Positions 1 to 52,627 of a stretch of DNA of 64,000 bases are shown piece by piece. The stretch is from NCBI GenBank assembly GCA_000004985.1, contig GG738849.1, one strand, 5' to 3'. The position numbers were made by a program, and so were the translations under genes. Numbering within the stretch: the stretch's first letter is position 1; the number at the start of each line of letters is the position of its first letter. The stretch is from Naegleria gruberi (taxonomy: Eukaryota). Under the pieces are notes generated by a model. That model saw only the letters and a program-made list of their open reading frames with translations, was not told where the DNA came from and searched no databases.

Positions 1-824
1 GGCATTGGATTTACTTGAAACAAATGGCATCCAAGTCGACGAAGTGATTTATGTTGTACTTTTGACTGCATGTGCAAACGATGTGTCAATAGAAAAAGGT
101 GAGCATGTTATCAAACTAATAGAATCGTCTGGAATGCTCACAGACCATATTATGTACGGAGCTGTTGTAAACTTTTATGCCAAAATTGGAAATATTCAAA
201 AAGCTCTGTATTTTTTCAATGAATATGATGGCCCTCCTGAAAGTCTTTAATGATGTGGAAAGAGCTGAGAGAGCATTTAACATTTTATTAGAGCTCGATA
301 AGGAGCAAGCAACTCATTATGTTCTAATGTCGCATGTGTACCTTCAAAGTGATCAACCAGAAAAAGCAAAAGAAATAAGGGAATTGATGAAAAAAAATGA
401 GGTACAAAAGACACCTGGCATTACTACAATTGAAATTAATGGCAAAACTTATCATTTTTACTACAATGACGAAAGCCACCCCAAAAAGGAGGAAATATTT
501 CAAGAATTGGACAAGTTATGCCAAGAAATGGAGCTCGCAGGCTATGTTCCAGACACGAGATGGGTTACTAAAACGGATGCCAATGATGAAGAAACAAAGA
601 AACATTTACTTTCAAGGCATTCTGAAAAAATTGCATTATCATTTGCTTTCATTTCCCTTCCACCTGGATCACCAATAACAATACGAAATAATCTGAGAAT
701 GTGTGGAGATTGTCACACAGCAACAAAGTTTATATCAAAAATCAGGAAGTGTGAAATTACGGTTAGAGATGCCAGTAGATATCATCACTTTAAGGATGGA
801 AAGTGCAGCTGTGGAGACTTTTAA
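1..824 (+). CDS. DYW-type pentatricopeptide repeat (PPR) RNA-editing factor, 5'-partial at the window edge. A PPR repeat is followed by E1/E2 and a DYW cytidine-deaminase-like domain with the HSEK..CGDCH..HHF..CSCGDF signature. There is an apparent 1-nt frameshift near 245-248.
   Basis: ORF 5-250 has a PPR motif (YGAVVNFYAKIGNIQKALYFFNEYDGPPES). ORF 177-824 has the E-domain consensus (ALLKVFNDVERAERAFNILLELD, HYVLMSHVY, TPGITTIEINGKTYHFYYNDESHP) and the DYW domain (HSEKIALSFAFI, CGDCH, RYHHFKDGKCSCGDF). The two frames overlap at 171-250. Removing one T from the T-run at about 246-248 gives a continuous PPESLNDVERAERAF. Confidence 0.8.
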
Positions 825-2862: not shown

Positions 2863-4028
2863 TTAGAGAAAAGTTGGATTGGCAGTTGTAATGGATGGTT
2901 CCTCTGTTGATGTAGTTCCTTCCAATTGAGAATAGGTTCCGACATTACCCTCCCTTCTCTTCCCATATTCATCTAATACATTGTGAGCTACCAATACAGC
3001 ATCTCTGTCATAGGTTTCATAATCGAGTGGTCTTCTTCTCACAGTGGCTGAAGTAAATCTCGACTTGACATTAGAGACACCTGAAGTACCCTCATGTTTT
3101 GTGAGAGCTCCTGTATTTTGTTCGGCGATACTCTTTCTGAATGCAATTTTCACTTCTGGATCCAATTCTTCGATACGATGAATTTTACCATCTCTCATGT
3201 AGACAACTCTGTCAGCTGCATTTTTCAAGTTAGGGTCGTGAGTAACCATGACCATTGTAATTCCATCTTCCTGATTGAGTTTGATGAGTAGATCCATAAC
3301 ATTAAGGGTATTTTTTGTATCCAAGTCACCACTATAAATCCATATCAGGTTTTCAGGTTTAGAATATTAGTCAATTCAATGTTAAAGTTAAATTAGAAAA
3401 TGTTAGAAAATTCTAAATAAATGAAATACATACGTTGGTTCATCTAAAAGTAAAATTTCTGGGTGATTAGAAATGGCTCTGGCAATTGTGACACGCTGTT
3501 GTTCACCTCCTGACAATTGATTAGGAGAGTGATCGAAACGATGTCCCATTCCAACTTTTTCTAACAACTTTTTAGCTCTTTCTCTTCTTGTTGATTTACT
3601 CACATTTCCTTGTAAAATCATTGGCATTTCCACATTTTCCAAAGCAGACATTGTTGATAATAAGTTAAAAGTTTGAAATACAAATCCCATTCTAGCCAAT
3701 CTAATATTGGCCAATGTTTCATCCTTTGTATTTGAAGTAACACGTTCTCCACAAATTGTCAAGTGACCCTTTGTTGGTTTATCAATAGTTCCAATAATAT
3801 TCAACATGGAGGTTTTACCACCTAAATGTGTGATGAAGATGTGTTGTTGATAATATTATTAATATTATTTATCACAATTATTATTATCATCATCATATCA
3901 TTAAATACACTACCTCCTGAAGTTCCGTAAATAACAAGAAATTCTCCTCTTTTCACTTTTAAATTAACTCCTCTCAAGGCAGGAACACCTTCAATACCTA
4001 ACAAGTAGGTTTTTTGAATATTATCCAA
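2863..4028 (-). CDS. Soluble bacterial-type ABC ATPase (LolD/MacB/FtsE-like nucleotide-binding domain, ABCH-like) with three exons: 3914-4028, 3434-3821 and 2863-3332.
   Basis: Walker A YGTSGG|GKTS is reconstituted across intron 1 (3822-3913, gtagtg..tttag). Q-loop, signature LSGGEQQRVTIARA and Walker B ILLLDEPT are in exon 2. Intron 2 (3333-3433, gtatgt..tatag) joins to GDLDTKNT..VTHD (D-loop and H-loop). Splice phases are consistent (1 and 2). Confidence 0.85.
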
Positions 4029-4821: not shown

Positions 4822-6048
4822 GTGAAAGTGTCCAAATCTCCAACAAGACAACTTAAAAAAATTATGATGCACAATTCAAAGACCCAACCATTCTCCATGA
4901 TGGGTCACACACCACTATCATCGGAGAGGAGGAAATATCGAAGAATGGAACAAATTATAAAACATCTTATACCTTTTGCAACTATTAAAAGTAGTAGTAG
5001 TATTGAAGAAAATAATTATTGTACAACAAGTGTAAATAATAATAGAAAATGTGAAAATAATAATCAAATGATGGAAATATTACAATTTTTAATAAGACAC
5101 ATTCTTGTTACTAAAAGGAATAATAAGGATTCTATCAATCAATTAAATATAATCCTACAAAAATATATTCAACAAACGAATGGGGATTTTAAAAAGTATT
5201 TACCAATCGGAATTATTGCAGGACTGATATGTGCAAACAAATATAATCAAAATAATAGTACTATATCGAATAGATTTAATATTGTAAAAAACATTTTTAG
5301 TAACAGTGCTGGAATTTTAAAAGATAACAATATTGCAGTCACAATTCATCATTTGAGTATGATTGAAATTTTAATTGCCATTTCAATTATTGTTACATTT
5401 TCTGGACTTACAGGAGCTGTGCTTGCACAAGTTTACGAAGAAAGTCGTGTGAGTAATGCCTTGTTAGATTTGGCAAAATTACAGGAAGGACTAGTTCTTT
5501 ATTTCACAAGACATGGTAAATATCCACTTTCACTTGAGGATTTATTAGAAGGAGGCGAGTTGAATAAGGTTCCAAAAGATCCTTGGGGAACAGATTACCT
5601 CTATGTCCCTCACCTCGATTGGAATCGTCTTAATAGAATTTTACTCACCACAACAACAAGCAATAGTGGAAATAATTCTACTTCACAACAACAATTAACA
5701 TATTTCAATGAAGTATTGAAGAGAATGGAAACTGTTCTGATAACATTACCTGGAGGTGTCACACCCATGTCATTACTAGCAATTGCCAATGAACAACCTT
5801 TCTGTATTTGTGTGGGAACAAAGATACCTCGTTTCCCAAGCAAGATTGATGTTGATGTATCGAGAGAACGTATCAGATATGTGGCCAATTTGATGAAAAT
5901 GTCTATGGAGAGAAGTAGTGTTGCTGGAAGTGTTCAATCCAATAATCAACAAGGTGTCACCTCAATAATGAATCAAATTACTGAATTGAATGCCAGAATT
6001 AAGAATATTTTAAATGTTACCAGACAAGCATCAGGTGGTGGAGAATAA
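4822..6048 (+). CDS. gspG: Type II secretion system major pseudopilin (GspG/PulG-like) homologue inside a 408-aa eukaryotic protein. There is an N-terminal extension of about 175 aa (basic, presequence-like), a pseudopilin domain at about nt 5350-5640, and a C-terminal extension of about 140 aa.
   Basis: Hydrophobic N-terminal pilin helix LSMIEILIAISIIVTFSGLTGAVLAQ with a conserved Glu. It is followed by EESRVSNALLDLAKLQEGLVLYFTRHGKYPLSLEDLLEGGELNKVPKDPWGTDYLYVP. This matches the GspG core (ALE/ALD..Y....YP...GLQAL......LPKDPWGNDY.) almost motif for motif. The N-terminus MKVSKSPTRQLKKIMMHNSKTQPFSMMGHTPLSSERRKYRR is basic and hydroxylated, like a mitochondrial presequence. Confidence 0.85.
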   Translation: MKVSKSPTRQLKKIMMHNSKTQPFSMMGHTPLSSERRKYRRMEQIIKHLIPFATIKSSSSIEENNYCTTSVNNNRKCENNNQMMEILQFLIRHILVTKRNNKDSINQLNIILQKYIQQTNGDFKKYLPIGIIAGLICANKYNQNNSTISNRFNIVKNIFSNSAGILKDNNIAVTIHHLSMIEILIAISIIVTFSGLTGAVLAQVYEESRVSNALLDLAKLQEGLVLYFTRHGKYPLSLEDLLEGGELNKVPKDPWGTDYLYVPHLDWNRLNRILLTTTTSNSGNNSTSQQQLTYFNEVLKRMETVLITLPGGVTPMSLLAIANEQPFCICVGTKIPRFPSKIDVDVSRERIRYVANLMKMSMERSSVAGSVQSNNQQGVTSIMNQITELNARIKNILNVTRQASGGGE

Positions 6049-7971: not shown

Positions 7972-8037
7972 CGCCCCACGTGGGGCTCGAGCCATTGGAT
8001 TAAAAGTCCAACGCTCTACCGACTGAGCTAGCGGGGC
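7972..8037 (-). tRNA. tRNA-Lys(UUU)-like gene, 66 nt. Acceptor stem, D-arm and anticodon arm are intact, but about 7 nt of the 5' T-stem strand are missing. It is a probable pseudogene or tRNA-derived element.
   Basis: The minus strand reads GCCCCGC TA GCTCAGTCGGTAGAGC G TTGGA CTTTTAA TCCAA TGGC TCGAGCC CCAC GTGGGGC G. The acceptor pairs 7/7 including one G-U. The D-arm is canonical and the anticodon is TTT. Relative to canonical tRNA-Lys (..GGGTCGTGGGTTCGAGCCCCACG..) the TCGTGGG segment is absent. Confidence 0.6.
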
Positions 8038-22437: not shown

Positions 22438-23880
22438 ATGGCCTCCATCTTGAAAACAAGTTGCAATCGTGCCTTGTATCGTGAAGCTTTCTATCAAGCA
22501 GCAAAATTAAAACAATCCGAAGGACTTTATTCTAATATTGCCTATTTTATTCAAGGAGGAGACATTAAAGCTAGAACACCTGGTAATGATGTTGATTTAT
22601 CATTTCGTCAAGAAAGTAATTTTTACTATTTAACTGGATTGTCTGAACCTGGATGTTGTTTACTTTTGAATCCATCCAAGAGTGAATCTGTTTTATTTGT
22701 TCCTGAATATGATGATGAATATGCATTGTGGTGTGGTGACTATCCAGTCATTGAAGATTACAAACAAAAACTTGGATTTTCAAGAGTGGAATATAAGACT
22801 CAAGGATCAACACTTGTTTCATCAATTCTCAATGAATGGCAAACTCACAAGGTTATTGCCTTCGATCAAGAATCAAAATCAAATCAATTAATTCAACAAC
22901 TTTCAAACGTTGAAGTTGTTGGTGATGAAATTACTCGTGCATTCTATGTTTTGGTTAGAGATTTAAGATTAATTAAACAACAAGAGGAAATTGAAATGAT
23001 GAGAAAGATGTGTCAAATCAGTGGTGACGCTCACGTCAAGTGTATGCAACGTTCTAGACCTGGAATTAATGAACGTGAATTAGAAGCTGTATTCAGATAT
23101 GAAACAATGATAAATGCTGGATCAGTTTTCATGGCTTATGATCCAATTATTGCTGGTGATGATCGTGGTGCTACATTGCACTATGTCAGAAATGATGAAA
23201 ATGTCAGTGATGGTAGTTTAGTCTTGATTGATGCTGGTGCTGAATGTTATGGATCATTATATGCCAGTGATATTACTAGAGTTTTCCCAGTTAATGGTAA
23301 ATTCTCTGAAAAGCAACGTCAAGTTTATCAAATTGTTCTTGATGCTCAAATGGCTGTATTGAATTCTATGAAGCCTGGTGTTAAATGGGAAGATATGCAT
23401 CGTTTGGCTTCAAGAGTCATTACTAAAGGATTGTTTGAATTGGGATTGTTGAAAGTTGATGGAAAGAGTGGAGAAGAAGCTGTTGATGAATTGGTTCAAA
23501 ACCACGTTGGAGCTGTCTTTTTCCCTCATGGTTTGGGACATGCTTTGGGTCTTGATGTTCACGATCCACCAAATCGTGATGGTAGTTTTGAAAAGATCGA
23601 CGAACCTGGTATTGGTTATTTGAGATTGAGAGTTACTCTCCAAAAGGGTATGGTCTTGACTGTTGAACCAGGTATCTATTTCAATAAGAGAATGATTGCC
23701 AACGCTTTCAAGAATGAAACAACAGCCAAATACTTGAATGCCACCCTCATTGATGAATACATGTGTGTTGGAGGTATTAGAATTGAAGATGATGTTGCAA
23801 TCACTGATGATGGTATTGATAATTTGTGTGCAGGTGTTCCAAAGACCATTGATGAAATTGAAAAGATCATGACTAAATAA
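22438..23880 (+). CDS. PEPD: Xaa-Pro dipeptidase (prolidase), M24B metallopeptidase.
   Basis: 480-aa ORF with M24B metal-ligand motifs (LVLIDAGAECYGSLYASDITRVFPVNGKF, HGLGHALGLDVHD, VLTVEPGIYF, GGIRIEDDV). Confidence 0.9.
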   Translation: MASILKTSCNRALYREAFYQAAKLKQSEGLYSNIAYFIQGGDIKARTPGNDVDLSFRQESNFYYLTGLSEPGCCLLLNPSKSESVLFVPEYDDEYALWCGDYPVIEDYKQKLGFSRVEYKTQGSTLVSSILNEWQTHKVIAFDQESKSNQLIQQLSNVEVVGDEITRAFYVLVRDLRLIKQQEEIEMMRKMCQISGDAHVKCMQRSRPGINERELEAVFRYETMINAGSVFMAYDPIIAGDDRGATLHYVRNDENVSDGSLVLIDAGAECYGSLYASDITRVFPVNGKFSEKQRQVYQIVLDAQMAVLNSMKPGVKWEDMHRLASRVITKGLFELGLLKVDGKSGEEAVDELVQNHVGAVFFPHGLGHALGLDVHDPPNRDGSFEKIDEPGIGYLRLRVTLQKGMVLTVEPGIYFNKRMIANAFKNETTAKYLNATLIDEYMCVGGIRIEDDVAITDDGIDNLCAGVPKTIDEIEKIMTK

Positions 23881-50716: not shown

Positions 50717-52627
50717 TTAATGGAATTTTACATATCTTTCGTGGAGCATTGAGGTAATCTTTTGGAATTTTGCAAACTCTCCATATTCTTCAGAGTCAAT
50801 ATCATTGATTTGTTGCTTGTGAACAACACCAAACTTTTTCTTTACATTTTGAAAGACATCTCTCACCATTGGAATGAGATATTTTTGTTGTGTAATGTCG
50901 ACAAACTTTCTATCAATCAAGGCACAAAACACAACAAGTGGAGTCATCTCATCACTAGTTCTGCATGATTCAAAGTAAAGTTTGATAAGTCCCTCAGTAA
51001 TTGCCAATCTCTTCTCGAGAGCATCCTTCATTACTGTGGATGCTCCTTTGACATCTTGTTGGTGTCTGTAGGCCATCAATAATTTCCAATGAATTTTGAT
51101 ATTGTTAATTTTGAAAAGATTAAGTGATCTCATTCTAGAAAGAATCACCCAAGCCTCTTTCATATTACCAACTCTACAGTAGGCATCAATGAGATCTTCC
51201 ATCATCATGGAGGTTGGTTTCAGTTTCTCCTTAGTTACAGCATAATCATAGATAGTCAACATTGTGTCAATATCAACCTCGTAAGTGTAGTTTGGTGGAA
51301 TGAAGGAACGAATCAAATGTTGGTAAATACTGGTCAGTTCCAAATTCAATCCATGCTTGAACTCGAGAGCATTCTCTGTTGGGGCGACATTGTCAAGACT
51401 TCCCACCACTTTTGCACTGGAATTATCCAAAAAGAATGCAGAGCTACTTCTGTAATCTTTGAACTTTCCTCTATTCAACAATAACCTGTGGAAAAGAGCT
51501 TTTGCTGCCTGTGGATTATAATAAGATCCAGATAGAAATAGTGATATAGAATCATAACATTTCAAATAGAAGAGGCCATATTCGTTTTCCATCAAATCCA
51601 AAGTTTCCATCATGACATTGATATTTCTAGATCCATGAATAACAAATCTAAATGTATCTTCATCAGGCTCATACCCAGAATCAATCATTATAGAAAAGTA
51701 TTTTGAAAGGAGTTCATTTTCCTGGAGAGGGGTTGTCATTGAGTTTGTTGCATCTCTCGACATGTTATCAGTACCAATTAATGCCAAAGCAGAAAGAAAA
51801 TGATTCCAATATGATGTATCCAGCTCAATACAATCATTCCACTGTGTAATTGCTTTTCTATAGTATTGAATGGCCTTGTCAACCTGATTGTCAACTCTGG
51901 ATGCATCGGTAAGGAAAATCAATGTTGTTAAATTAGGATTGATTCCATTCTTTTCCATAAATCTTTCCATTTCCCAAATCTGCTCCGTTGCTCGCAATCT
52001 CAAATAAATATCCATAAACATGTTAAATAAATGTACATCAAAAGCTAATACGTCTGGTCCAATATTATTAGAAATGTCATTTACAAATATAGCTTCCTTT
52101 TTGGCATCTCTGAACATGATGTCAACCTTTCGGAGAAGGGTTTCTCTATCTTGGAGAATTATTTTTCTTTCATTTGGATTATTTAAATAGTGCTGACTTC
52201 CCTGTAGTGCTTGTTTAATATTTGAAGATGATAATATTGTTCTATCATTTTTCAAGTAGCTTTGTTGACAATTTACTAATTTTCTTCTTATCAATGAAAC
52301 TTCATTTCTAATATTAACATTATTCCATCTTTGTGAAAAATTATTTAATAAAAGTCCAATATTTTGTTCATGTTTTGCCTTTAAATTATTACTCTCTTGA
52401 AAATGTTTTAAATTCTTCCTCATAAAATCAATATTGGTCAAGTATTTTCTCTGAATGGTGCTACTCTCAATGACATGATCTTGATGAAAAGCTGATGAAT
52501 AATTTCTTCTTTTATTCCCTTCCGAAGATTTTGAGAATTTTAAAACACCACAATGACCCAATAATAATTGTTTCCTAGTTGTTGATGATGTTCCGAGTAG
52601 GAATGAAACTTTGTTTGTGTTGTTCAT
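50717..52627 (-). CDS. Hypothetical helical-repeat protein with PPR-like repeats.
   Basis: 636-aa ORF with degenerate 35-aa helical repeats (DLIDAYCRVGNMKEAWVILSRMRS; FNMFMDIYLRLRATEQIWEMERFMEKNGINPN). Confidence 0.5.
   Translation of the reverse strand: MNNTNKVSFLLGTSSTTRKQLLLGHCGVLKFSKSSEGNKRRNYSSAFHQDHVIESSTIQRKYLTNIDFMRKNLKHFQESNNLKAKHEQNIGLLLNNFSQRWNNVNIRNEVSLIRRKLVNCQQSYLKNDRTILSSSNIKQALQGSQHYLNNPNERKIILQDRETLLRKVDIMFRDAKKEAIFVNDISNNIGPDVLAFDVHLFNMFMDIYLRLRATEQIWEMERFMEKNGINPNLTTLIFLTDASRVDNQVDKAIQYYRKAITQWNDCIELDTSYWNHFLSALALIGTDNMSRDATNSMTTPLQENELLSKYFSIMIDSGYEPDEDTFRFVIHGSRNINVMMETLDLMENEYGLFYLKCYDSISLFLSGSYYNPQAAKALFHRLLLNRGKFKDYRSSSAFFLDNSSAKVVGSLDNVAPTENALEFKHGLNLELTSIYQHLIRSFIPPNYTYEVDIDTMLTIYDYAVTKEKLKPTSMMMEDLIDAYCRVGNMKEAWVILSRMRSLNLFKINNIKIHWKLLMAYRHQQDVKGASTVMKDALEKRLAITEGLIKLYFESCRTSDEMTPLVVFCALIDRKFVDITQQKYLIPMVRDVFQNVKKKFGVVHKQQINDIDSEEYGEFAKFQKITSMLHERYVKFH

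What the first reader, a model, noticed from the sequence alone, without database searches (positions are those of the whole stretch)
5330..5660. Pseudopilin domain lacks the canonical prepilin peptidase site (G-1/F+1) but keeps Glu+5, and is buried between long N- and C-terminal extensions
In bacteria GspG is made as a short prepilin and cleaved by GspO at G|F(T/S)LIE, with N-methylation of F+1. Here the helix begins HHLS MIEIL. There is no Gly-Phe pair, but a Glu is retained 3-5 residues into the helix. About 175 aa precede it and about 140 aa follow. This argues for processing by a different protease (for example a mitochondrial processing peptidase or an inner-membrane peptidase) rather than a prepilin peptidase. 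It is consistent with the absence of any GspO-like gene being needed. The retained Glu suggests helix-helix assembly as in bacterial pseudopili. The C-terminal extension (residues about 275-408) has no bacterial counterpart.
Basis: partly seen in the sequence, partly recalled or inferred. Interest (0 to 1): 0.7.

Follow-up and report, generated by a model that had tools for sequence, protein, structure and literature searches.

The report
Naegleria mitochondrial pseudopilin GspG1, already described
This is the nuclear gene for GspG1, the pilus-like subunit of the bacterial-type secretion machine that Naegleria keeps in its mitochondria; its missing Gly-Phe cleavage site, retained Glu+5 and long extensions are real but were published in 2021, and the one apparently new point is a peroxisome-type (PTS2-like) signal in its N-terminal extension.

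Summary
The ORF at 4864-6048 (+) is 100% identical to Naegleria gruberi XP_002681672.1, which Horváthová et al. 2021 (PMC8134430) studied as NgGspG1.

Aligned to mature PulG and to 110 bacterial GspG, the site reads His(-1)|Leu(+1)-Ser-Met-Ile-Glu(+5). It is preceded by 163 residues, counted from the ATG. Homology to bacterial GspG covers about 98 residues, and about 133 further residues have no bacterial match.

Among 33 eukaryote-type homologues found here, -1 is never Gly, +1 is Phe in 27 and Leu in 6, and Glu+5 is invariant. All of this is already published, including the lack of GspO, cleavage "after the His", and MPP or Gcp16 as candidate peptidases. The finding is therefore already known.

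Three points are added here:
- The C-terminal domain models confidently (pLDDT 88) as a helical bundle with no specific relative among solved structures.
- The bacterial C-terminal strands and calcium-binding motif are not detectable.
- The N-terminal extension carries RMEQIIKHL. This PTS2-like nonapeptide occurs in 49 of 56 inner-side miT2SS subunits and 1 of 26 outer-side ones. The system co-occurs with three Pex7-like proteins. I found no earlier report of this.

The parts
4864..6048 (+). Coding sequence of NgGspG1 (394 aa plus stop), a single exon. The mechanical ORF extends upstream to a GTG at 4822.
   Evidence: ORF list. 100% identity to the N. gruberi protein P0001. Identical to XP_002681672.1 'Naegleria gruberi (GspG1)' in Suppl. 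Data 1 of PMC8134430. The computed 44.4 kDa equals the 44.415 kDa listed in Suppl. Data 2.
4864..5352 (+). N-terminal extension, residues 1-163: basic (pI 9.9), 18.9 kDa, poorly conserved apart from one motif. It is the removable targeting presequence.
   Evidence: Alignment A1 and composition. The first 160 residues carried mNeonGreen into the T. brucei mitochondrion, and all detected peptides lie downstream of the site (PMC8134430). The extension would yield 9 tryptic peptides of detectable size, against 10 from the mature part.
4942..4968 (+). PTS2-like nonapeptide RMEQIIKHL (residues 27-35), followed by I-P.
   Evidence: Translation. The motif is conserved in GspG homologues and in GspE, F, G, EL, EN2A and EN2B of all lineages. 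Statistics. PTS2 consensus taken from PMC7710942.
5347..5352 (+). His-His at positions -2 and -1. This takes the place of the basic residue plus Gly-1 of bacterial prepilins (the 'polar anchor').
   Evidence: Translation. Among 33 eukaryote-type sequences, -1 is H15 N6 Y4 R2 P2 F1 Q1 A1, and -2 is H15 K7 R6.
5353..5367 (+). Leu+1-Ser-Met-Ile-Glu+5: the presumed mature N-terminus with the invariant Glu+5 (codon 5365-5367).
   Evidence: HMM alignment to mature PulG 5wda starting at residue 1. hhalign places Leu1 against Phe+1. Glu+5 is present in 33/33 eukaryote-type and 110/110 bacterial sequences.
5353..5646 (+). Region homologous to bacterial GspG (mature residues 1-98). It comprises the hydrophobic alpha1 helix (the only strong hydrophobic segment of the protein), a shortened alpha-beta loop, and the DPWGxxYxY strand.
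   Evidence: hhalign probability 99.8%, E 5.5e-28, 97 aligned columns. Pfam and NCBIfam hits. PDB profile hits to EpsG, GspG and PulG. Hydropathy.
5647..6045 (+). C-terminal 'novel domain' (ND), about 133 residues. No bacterial or solved-structure relative was found.

Best explanation
The gene encodes NgGspG1, the nuclear-encoded major pseudopilin of the mitochondrial type II secretion-like system (miT2SS) of Naegleria gruberi.

**Shown.**
- Identity with the published protein.
- Homology to bacterial GspG over the first ~98 mature residues, with Leu at +1, His at -1 and Glu at +5.
- Clade-wide loss of Gly-1 together with gain of a long N-terminal extension and a C-terminal helical domain.

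**Shown by others.**
- Mitochondrial localisation.
- Targeting activity of the first 160 residues.
- Peptides detected only downstream of the site.
- Self-interaction of the pseudopilin domain.

**Inferred mechanism.**
1. The 44-kDa precursor is imported N-terminus first.
2. The single hydrophobic helix arrests in the inner membrane, with the extension in the matrix and the globular part in the intermembrane space.
3. The extension is removed at or very near His163|Leu164 by a protease that is not an A24 prepilin peptidase.
4. The new amino terminus is neutralised by Glu+5, as in bacterial pseudopili. This lets GspF and GspE extract the 25.6-kDa subunit and polymerise it.

**Which protease.** I lean slightly towards a membrane-proximal dedicated peptidase, with the co-occurring gluzincin-like Gcp16 as the candidate, over the soluble matrix processing peptidase. 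The conserved residues at -1 and -2 are His rather than Arg, and the bond abuts the membrane helix.
For: **Identity.**

**Homology and site register.**

**Site statistics.** In 33 eukaryote-type sequences, -1 is never Gly, -2 is basic or His in 28, +1 is F27/L6, and Glu+5 is present in all 33. In 110 bacterial sequences, -1 is G96/A14. The C-terminal domain co-occurs perfectly with a non-Gly -1: of 27 ND-positive proteins with a visible site, none has Gly.

**Membrane segment.** There is one strong hydrophobic segment, at residues 157-191.

**Masses and peptides.** Precursor 44.4 kDa and mature 25.6 kDa. The extension would give 9 detectable tryptic peptides, yet the paper saw none from it.

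**Published experiments.** Localisation, the 160-aa targeting test, a Kd of 216 nM for self-interaction, GoGspG1 oligomerisation and its interaction with GoGspF in BACTH, no GspO homologue, and the MPP and Gcp16 hypotheses. The 2023 review states 'cleavage following the His residue' and gives the role of E5.

**Window content.** No A24 peptidase and no other Gsp gene among the 33 ORFs scanned against Pfam (31 of the 32 ORFs of at least 200 aa, plus two shorter ones).
Against: - The mature N-terminus has never been mapped. The first tryptic peptide of the presumed mature protein is a 32-residue hydrophobic peptide that is unlikely to be detected. Cleavage somewhere upstream of +1 is therefore not excluded.
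- Gcp16 was not found in the N. gruberi mitochondrial or peroxisomal proteome, and its localisation is unknown.
- No pseudopilus has been seen in mitochondria.
- The C-terminal third of bacterial GspG (beta2-beta3 and the DGxxGG calcium-site motif) is not detectable here, so assembly may differ from the bacterial model.
- The AF2 model of the whole mature protein was poor (pLDDT 65.5).
Confidence: 0.7

Rival explanations
1. The matrix processing peptidase (MPP) alone removes the whole extension and creates the mature Leu+1 terminus in one step. This is hypothesis 1 of the 2021 paper.
For: - N-in topology and a presequence-type extension.
- Across the clade the site resembles an MPP 'R-2' site: a basic residue at -2 in 28 of 33, Phe or Leu at +1, and Ser or Asn at +2.
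- Several members read KRRR|F, RKRQ|F or VRH|F.
Against: - Arg occupies -2 in only 6 of 33 sequences, while His dominates at -1 and -2.
- N. gruberi GspG1 has no Arg within 10 residues upstream (GILKDNNIAVTIHH|LS).
- The scissile bond directly abuts the membrane helix, which is awkward for a soluble peptidase (inference).
Confidence: 0.3
2. The inner-membrane peptidase (IMP), or another protease facing the intermembrane space, makes the cut.
For: IMP does process bipartite presequences of intermembrane-space proteins (general knowledge). GspG2-type paralogues have a second hydrophobic segment inside the extension.
Against: By homology with bacterial prepilins, the bond lies on the N-terminal, matrix side of the helix, whereas IMP acts on the intermembrane-space side. 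GspG1 has only one strong hydrophobic segment.
Confidence: 0.03
3. There is no precise cut at the canonical position. The extension is trimmed elsewhere, or the protein acts as a membrane-anchored subunit. Glu+5 would then be conserved for another reason.
For: No N-terminal mapping exists. The peptide data cannot distinguish a cut at +1 from a cut up to about 10 residues upstream. The variable -1 residue (H, N, Y, R, P, F, Q, A, E) shows loose sequence constraint.
Against: Glu+5, Phe/Leu+1 and the whole +1 to +20 block are invariant or nearly so across four eukaryotic supergroups. The known role of E5 is to neutralise the +1 amino group (PMC10128026).
Confidence: 0.1
4. The extension is a PTS2-type presequence. 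A Pex7-like receptor (Gcp1-3) recognises it, and a PTS2-processing-type protease (the DEG15/Tysnd1 kind) removes it, rather than a mitochondrial presequence peptidase.
For: - A PTS2-like nonapeptide is present in the extension and in 49 of 56 inner-side miT2SS subunits.
- PTS2 presequences are cleaved after import (PMC7710942).
- Three Pex7 paralogues co-occur with the system.
Against: - The protein is experimentally mitochondrial, and its first 160 residues target to mitochondria, not glycosomes, in T. brucei.
- There is no conserved Cys-containing cleavage motif next to the site.
- The cut would lie 128 residues downstream of the nonapeptide and against a membrane helix.
Confidence: 0.07

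Closest known systems
NgGspG1 (XP_002681672.1), the mitochondrial GspG of the miT2SS (Horváthová et al. 2021, PMC8134430; review PMC10128026)
   Same: It is the same protein, residue for residue. The published description already covers the N-terminal extension as a targeting sequence, the C-terminal 'novel domain', Leu at +1, Glu at +5, the absence of GspO, and MPP or Gcp16 as candidate peptidases.
   Different: Nothing differs in the object itself. This analysis adds site statistics over about 33 further homologues, a confident structure prediction of the C-terminal domain with negative fold searches, the lack of the bacterial C-terminal strands and calcium motif, and the PTS2-like motif.
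Bacterial major pseudopilin GspG/PulG/EpsG (Pfam PF08334, TIGR01710; PDB 5wda, 3fu1, 4lw9, 2kep)
   Same: The hydrophobic alpha1 helix with Glu+5, the (F/L)-(S/T/N)-(L/M)-I-E start, the alpha-beta loop and the DPWGxxYxY strand. hhalign probability 99.8%.
   Different: - No Gly-1, and a 163-aa leader instead of a 6-40-aa one.
- A shortened alpha-beta loop.
- No detectable beta2-beta3 strands or DGxxGG calcium-site motif.
- About 133 extra C-terminal residues.
- The TIGR01710 score is far below its cut-off.
Class III (type IV pilin-like) signal peptides cleaved and N-methylated by A24 prepilin peptidases (GspO/PilD)
   Same: The position of the presumed cut, at the cytoplasm-equivalent face just before the hydrophobic helix. 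Polar or basic residues upstream, and Glu at +5.
   Different: The defining Gly (or Ala) at -1 is absent. No A24 homologue has been reported in these eukaryotes, so N-methylation of +1 is presumably lost as well.
PTS2 presequences of peroxisomal matrix proteins (thiolase, malate dehydrogenase), recognised by Pex7
   Same: An N-terminal nonapeptide R-(L/V/I/M)-x2-hydrophobic-x2-(H/Q)-(L/A/F/I/V/M), mostly within the first 40 residues and often followed by Pro. It sits on a presequence that is removed after import.
   Different: The carriers are subunits of a mitochondrial machine, and two of them (GspF, GspG) are membrane proteins. Localisation data point to mitochondria. N. gruberi GspG1 has Met at position 2, which fails the stringent consensus.

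Membership tests
T2SS major pseudopilin GspG (PF08334 / TIGR01710) | Sequence match to the family models above their curated cut-offs | tested here: inconclusive
   Pfam T2SSG scores 24.5 bits against a cut-off of 21, covering only 6-77 of 108 profile positions. TIGR01710 scores 27.4 bits against a cut-off of 88.85. Profile-profile comparison with 40 bacterial GspG gives probability 99.8%. The protein is a clear homologue but not an equivalog.
T2SS major pseudopilin GspG (PF08334 / TIGR01710) | Class III signal peptide: short basic leader, Gly at -1, Phe (or Met) at +1, cleaved by an A24 peptidase | tested here: not met
   His at -1, Leu at +1, and a 163-aa leader. Bacterial hits have G96/A14 at -1 and leaders of 6-83 aa.
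T2SS major pseudopilin GspG (PF08334 / TIGR01710) | Glu at +5 in a hydrophobic N-terminal helix | tested here: met
   Glu168 (codon 5365-5367) lies exactly at +5. The single hydrophobic segment spans residues 157-191.
T2SS major pseudopilin GspG (PF08334 / TIGR01710) | C-terminal beta2-beta3 strands with the calcium-binding DGxxGG...D motif | tested here: not met
   The family models stop matching after DPWGTDYLYV. hhalign of the C-terminal part against bacterial GspG gives probability 0.3%, and its only local match is PFCICVG against the bacterial xS(L/Y)GxDG strand. No DGxxGG motif is visible.
Eukaryotic mitochondrial GspG (miT2SS; Horváthová et al. 2021) | Conserved IEILIAISIIVTFSGL helix, long N-terminal extension, C-terminal novel domain, eukaryotic nuclear gene | tested here: met
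   Identical to the published NgGspG1. ND HMM positive. The flanking genes are eukaryotic: Elp3, B9-C2, Prp18, copine, myotubularin.
Eukaryotic mitochondrial GspG (miT2SS; Horváthová et al. 2021) | Mitochondrial localisation and removal of the extension | not testable with these tools
   Taken from the literature only: antibody localisation, cell fractionation, the 160-aa targeting test, and peptides found only downstream of the site.
PTS2-bearing proteins (Pex7 cargo) | [RK]-[LVI]-x5-[HQ]-[LAF], with a hydrophobic residue at position 5, within about the first 40 residues | tested here: inconclusive
   N. gruberi GspG1 has RMEQIIKHL at residues 27-35. The Met at position 2 fails the stringent motif, although PMC7710942 names RMx5HL as a likely functional variant. 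Family-wide, the stringent motif is present in 31 of 56 inner-side subunits, and the motif with published variants in 49 of 56.
PTS2-bearing proteins (Pex7 cargo) | Binding to Pex7 and import into peroxisomes | not testable with these tools
   Published localisation is mitochondrial. Binding to Pex7 or to the Pex7-like Gcp1-3 has never been tested.
Classical MPP substrates | Arg at -2 (R-2) or -3 (R-3) relative to the cut | tested here: not met
   The N. gruberi site is TIHH|LS, with no Arg within 10 residues upstream. Arg is at -2 in 6 and at -3 in 3 of 33 homologues.

The most novel reading that the evidence does not exclude
The N-terminal extensions of the inner-membrane and matrix-side miT2SS subunits (GspE, GspF, GspG, GspEL, GspEN2A, GspEN2B) carry a conserved PTS2-type nonapeptide, which in this gene is RMEQIIKHL at 4942-4968. 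This would be the recognition signal for the three Pex7-like WD40 proteins (Gcp1-3) that co-occur with the system. If so, a Pex7/PTS2-type receptor-signal pair was recruited to deliver or assemble a bacterial-type secretion machine in mitochondria, or to link it to peroxisomes. I found no mention of the motif in the 2021 paper, its preprint, the 2023 review, or elsewhere in the searchable library.
Probability: 0.3. Interest if true: 0.8.

Novelty: already known. Interest (0 to 1): 0.3.

Why it matters

The comparative data here sharpen the question:
- Gly-1 is gone in all but one of the sequences examined.
- His dominates at -1 and -2, and Arg is rare. This argues for a peptidase with a new specificity and gives concrete residues to mutate.

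The side observation would matter more if it holds. A PTS2-like signal on exactly the inner-side subunits would give the so far unexplained Pex7-like Gcp1-3 proteins a testable job. It would also tie together the mitochondrial and peroxisomal hints in the published data.

Tried and rejected
1. **Whole mature protein, AF2 with 12 sequences.** The model was poor (pLDDT 65.5). Its Foldseek search of PDB gave nothing below E 0.3, so it was discarded.
3. **afdb50 fold search.** This would have tested for bacterial look-alikes, but the library was unavailable.
4. **Word-index protein search with the C-terminal domain alone.** It returned no hits at all, not even the query's own protein. It failed its positive control and says nothing about bacterial counterparts.
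5. **PDB profile search with the C-terminal domain.** Only designed helical proteins came back.
6. **The idea that the strand PFCICVG is the remnant of the bacterial beta2 strand (xSLGADG).** It is the only local hhalign match, but over 10 columns at probability 0.3%. I keep it as a lead only.
7. **Linked miT2SS, A24 or processing-peptidase genes in the window.** None was found. The neighbours are ordinary nuclear genes. The M24B aminopeptidase 17 kb away belongs to the Icp55/XPNPEP3 family (my recollection, not tested here), but nothing links it to this gene.
8. **A sequencing or frame error hiding a Gly-Phe site.** Rejected: the ORF is continuous, and HHLSMIE recurs in three further Naegleria-type proteins.
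Full report
**What is there.** The window is AT-rich (GC 0.30-0.38) and carries typical eukaryotic nuclear genes: Elp3, B9-C2, copine, Prp18, cytochrome P450, MTHFR, myotubularin, TCP-1 and PPR proteins. The finding lies in one uninterrupted ORF at 4822-6048 (+). From its first ATG (4864) it encodes 394 aa. That protein is 100% identical to 'predicted protein [Naegleria gruberi]'. It is also identical, residue for residue, to XP_002681672.1, listed as 'Naegleria gruberi (GspG1)' in Supplementary Data 1 of Horváthová et al. 2021 (PMC8134430). Its computed mass of 44.4 kDa equals the 44.415 kDa given there.

**Checking the observation.** The pseudopilin domain is real.
- Pfam T2SSG passes its gathering score (24.5 against 21 bits, ORF residues 205-262).
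- A family profile hits the solved EpsG, GspG and PulG structures (E 5e-5 to 2e-3).
- Profile-profile comparison with 40 bacterial GspG gives probability 99.8%, E 5.5e-28 over 97 columns.

Both the HMM alignment to mature PulG (5wda, whose chain starts at Phe+1) and the hhalign alignment put N. gruberi Leu164 at +1, His163 at -1 and Glu168 exactly at +5. The DNA at 5344-5370 translates to IHHLSMIEI. Counted from the ATG, 163 residues precede +1. Homology to bacterial GspG ends after about 98 mature residues, and about 133 residues follow.

**Is it more than chance or error?** I collected relatives with two word-index searches and one exhaustive HMMER search. The exhaustive search gave 4067 hits at E <= 1e-3, of which the best 150 were inspected.

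| Position | 110 bacterial-type proteins | 33 eukaryote-type proteins |
|---|---|---|
| -1 | Gly 96, Ala 14 | H15 N6 Y4 R2 P2 F1 Q1 A1, never Gly |
| -2 | R31 K21 A16 S15, others fewer | H15 K7 R6 |
| +1 | F92 M12 L4 V2 | F27 L6 |
| +2 | T80 S30 | N19 S14 |
| +5 | Glu 110/110 | Glu 33/33 |

(all)

An HMM of the C-terminal domain is positive in 40 proteins. Of the 27 with a visible site, none has Gly at -1. The few domain-negative proteins without Gly or Ala at -1 are short fragments (104-216 aa) carrying the eukaryote-type helix. Several metagenomic members could be tied to eukaryotes or to named species. P0009 sits between SYF2 and CENP-O genes. P0043, P0054 and P0058 equal the published Malawimonas and Gefionella sequences. 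The string HHLSMIE recurs in three further Naegleria-type proteins (P0002-P0004), one of them named N. lovaniensis, so a sequencing or frame error is excluded. One exception to the loss of Gly-1 appears in the published sequences: Spironema reads PRVHG|FSLIE.

**What is already known.** The 2021 paper describes exactly this architecture:
- a transmembrane segment and pseudopilin domain, with an N-terminal extension acting as targeting sequence;
- a C-terminal 'novel domain' of about 100 residues without detectable homologues by HHpred or Phyre2;
- Leu at +1 in NgGspG1, and conserved Glu+5;
- no GspO homologue.

It also reports mitochondrial localisation by antibody and fractionation, and targeting of a reporter by the first 160 residues. 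All detected peptides lie downstream of the site. The pseudopilin domain self-interacts (Kd 216 nM), and the Gefionella orthologue GoGspG1 oligomerises and interacts with GoGspF in BACTH. It proposes either MPP or the gluzincin-like Gcp16 as the substitute peptidase. [quoted passage not shown] The finding is therefore a correct rediscovery and is not new.

**How it most likely works.** The protein has one strong hydrophobic segment, residues 157-191. By homology, the bond to be cut lies at the N-terminal face of that segment, which in mitochondria is the matrix face. I infer the following sequence:
1. Presequence-type import.
2. Arrest of the helix in the inner membrane.
3. Removal of the 18.9-kDa extension at or near His163|Leu164.
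4. Assembly of the 25.6-kDa subunit by GspF and GspE, with Glu+5 pairing with the new amino group.

Removal of the extension is supported by the published peptide map. The extension would give 9 tryptic peptides of detectable size, against 10 from the mature part, yet none was seen. The exact N-terminus is unmapped, because the first tryptic peptide of the mature form is a 32-residue hydrophobic peptide.

As for the protease, an A24 enzyme is excluded by the clade-wide loss of Gly-1 together with the published absence of GspO.
- MPP is plausible on topology, and because -2 is basic or His in 28 of 33 sequences with Phe or Leu at +1. But Arg is rare at -2 (6 of 33), N. gruberi has no Arg within ten residues, and the bond abuts the helix.
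- The dominance of His at -1 and -2 points to a different specificity. I therefore lean slightly towards a membrane-proximal peptidase such as Gcp16, whose localisation is unknown.

**The C-terminal part.** Family models stop matching after DPWGTDYLYV. The bacterial beta2-beta3 strands and the DGxxGG calcium-site motif, visible in the bacterial alignment, have no counterpart here. With a 22-sequence alignment, AlphaFold2 models the segment from DPWG to the end confidently (pLDDT 88.4, pTM 0.83). The elements in order are beta1, three helices, a short strand (FCIC) and two long helices.
- Foldseek finds nothing significant in the PDB.
- A PDB profile search finds only designed proteins.

The only local hhalign match to bacterial GspG is PFCICVG against the bacterial beta2 strand motif, and it is not significant. 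So 'no bacterial counterpart' holds within the reach of these searches. The one search that could have reached further failed its own positive control, and the AlphaFold-database library was unavailable.

**A side observation that seems new.** The otherwise poorly conserved N-terminal extensions share one short motif. In this gene it is RMEQIIKHL-IP (residues 27-35, window 4942-4968). It is present in most GspG homologues. In the published sequence tables it is also present near the N-terminus of GspE, GspF, GspEL, GspEN2A and GspEN2B. This holds across heteroloboseans, jakobids, malawimonads and hemimastigotes. It is absent from the outer-membrane and intermembrane-space components GspD, GspDL and GspDN1. 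The motif matches the peroxisomal targeting signal type 2. That signal is [RK]-[LVI]-x5-[HQ]-[LAF] with a hydrophobic residue at position 5. It usually lies within the first 40 residues, on a presequence cleaved after import (PMC7710942).

| Motif definition | Inner-side subunits | Outer-side subunits | Shuffle mean (inner) | Fisher p |
|---|---|---|---|---|
| Published stringent motif, applied as defined | 31 of 56 | 2 of 26 | 2.7 | 2.7e-5 |
| With the variants named in that paper (Met at 2; Ile, Val or Met at 9) and hydrophobic position 5 | 49 of 56 | 1 of 26 | 1.7 | 1e-13 |

None of the 51 ORFs of at least 100 aa in this window carries the stringent motif in its first 100 residues. With my relaxed pattern, only GspG1 does. 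The relaxed pattern was tuned after looking at the data, so its hit rate is optimistic, whereas the stringent one was not tuned. Gcp6 carries the motif only in Naegleria.

The 2021 paper reports three Pex7-like WD40 proteins (Gcp1-3) co-occurring with the system. It mentions PTS2 only as what Pex7 binds, and it predicted PTS1 only. Neither that paper, its preprint, the 2023 review nor the library searches mention PTS2-like motifs on Gsp proteins.

The simplest rival is that the motif is just the amphipathic core of a mitochondrial presequence. Against this stands its conservation across six protein families and four supergroups. In its favour, the proteins are experimentally mitochondrial, and the 160-aa extension went to the mitochondrion, not the glycosome, in T. 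brucei. I rate the Pex7-like receptor reading at about 0.3.

**Verdict.** The feature is already known, and I score the interest of the finding itself as low. The PTS2-like signal is the item worth passing on.

Noticed in passing
window 4942-4968 (+), inside the N-terminal extension of the same gene: PTS2-like nonapeptide RMEQIIKHL. The same motif sits near the N-terminus of 49 of 56 inner-side miT2SS subunits (GspE, F, G, EL, EN2A, EN2B) across four eukaryotic supergroups, but of only 1 of 26 outer-side subunits (GspD, DL, DN1). The system co-occurs with three Pex7-like proteins. I found no report of this in the held literature.
   Followed up: partly
not in the window; Spironema cf. multiciliatum GspG in Suppl. 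Data 1 of PMC8134430: This is the one eukaryotic GspG seen with the canonical bacterial Gly(-1)|Phe(+1)...SPRVHG|FSLIELLIAVSI. It is either a retained ancestral state or a reversion. It would be a natural substrate for testing whether the eukaryotic peptidase tolerates Gly.
   Followed up: no
P0012, P0013 and N. gruberi GspG2 on ACER01000058.1: GspG2-type paralogues have a second strongly hydrophobic stretch inside the N-terminal extension, about 30 residues upstream of the KH|FSLIE site (for example SLILLILLGGIVWIFY, or LKIIILIIFILIIIKI). GspG1 lacks it. The topology or processing of the two paralogues may therefore differ.
   Followed up: no
window 5353-6045 compared with bacterial GspG: The bacterial C-terminal third (beta2-beta3 and the DGxxGG...D calcium-site motif) is not detectable in the eukaryotic proteins, although the 2021 paper calls the pseudopilin domain 'complete'. 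The strand PFCICVG/PFVFSxG might be a remnant of beta2, but the match is not significant.
   Followed up: partly
window 177-824 (+): The ORF ends in E, E+ and DYW deaminase domains (DYW at E 2e-38), so it is the C-terminus of a plant-type PPR RNA-editing factor. As I recall, such factors are known from Naegleria. A second PPR protein lies at 50717-52627 (-).
   Followed up: no
window 22438-23880 (+): Aminopeptidase P of family M24B with an AMP_N domain. From memory, this is the family that includes the mitochondrial presequence-trimming enzyme Icp55/XPNPEP3. It lies 17 kb from GspG1, and there is no evidence of any functional link.
   Followed up: no
window 7972-8037 (-): Rfam tRNA model hit at 43.8 bits (cut-off 29), just downstream of the Elp3 gene. 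ARAGORN reports no tRNA anywhere in the window.
   Followed up: no
window 3403-4028 (-): An ABC-transporter ATP-binding domain is split between two adjacent ORFs (3822-4028 and 3403-3807) separated by a short gap. It looks like a short intron, which is consistent with a eukaryotic nuclear locus.
   Followed up: no
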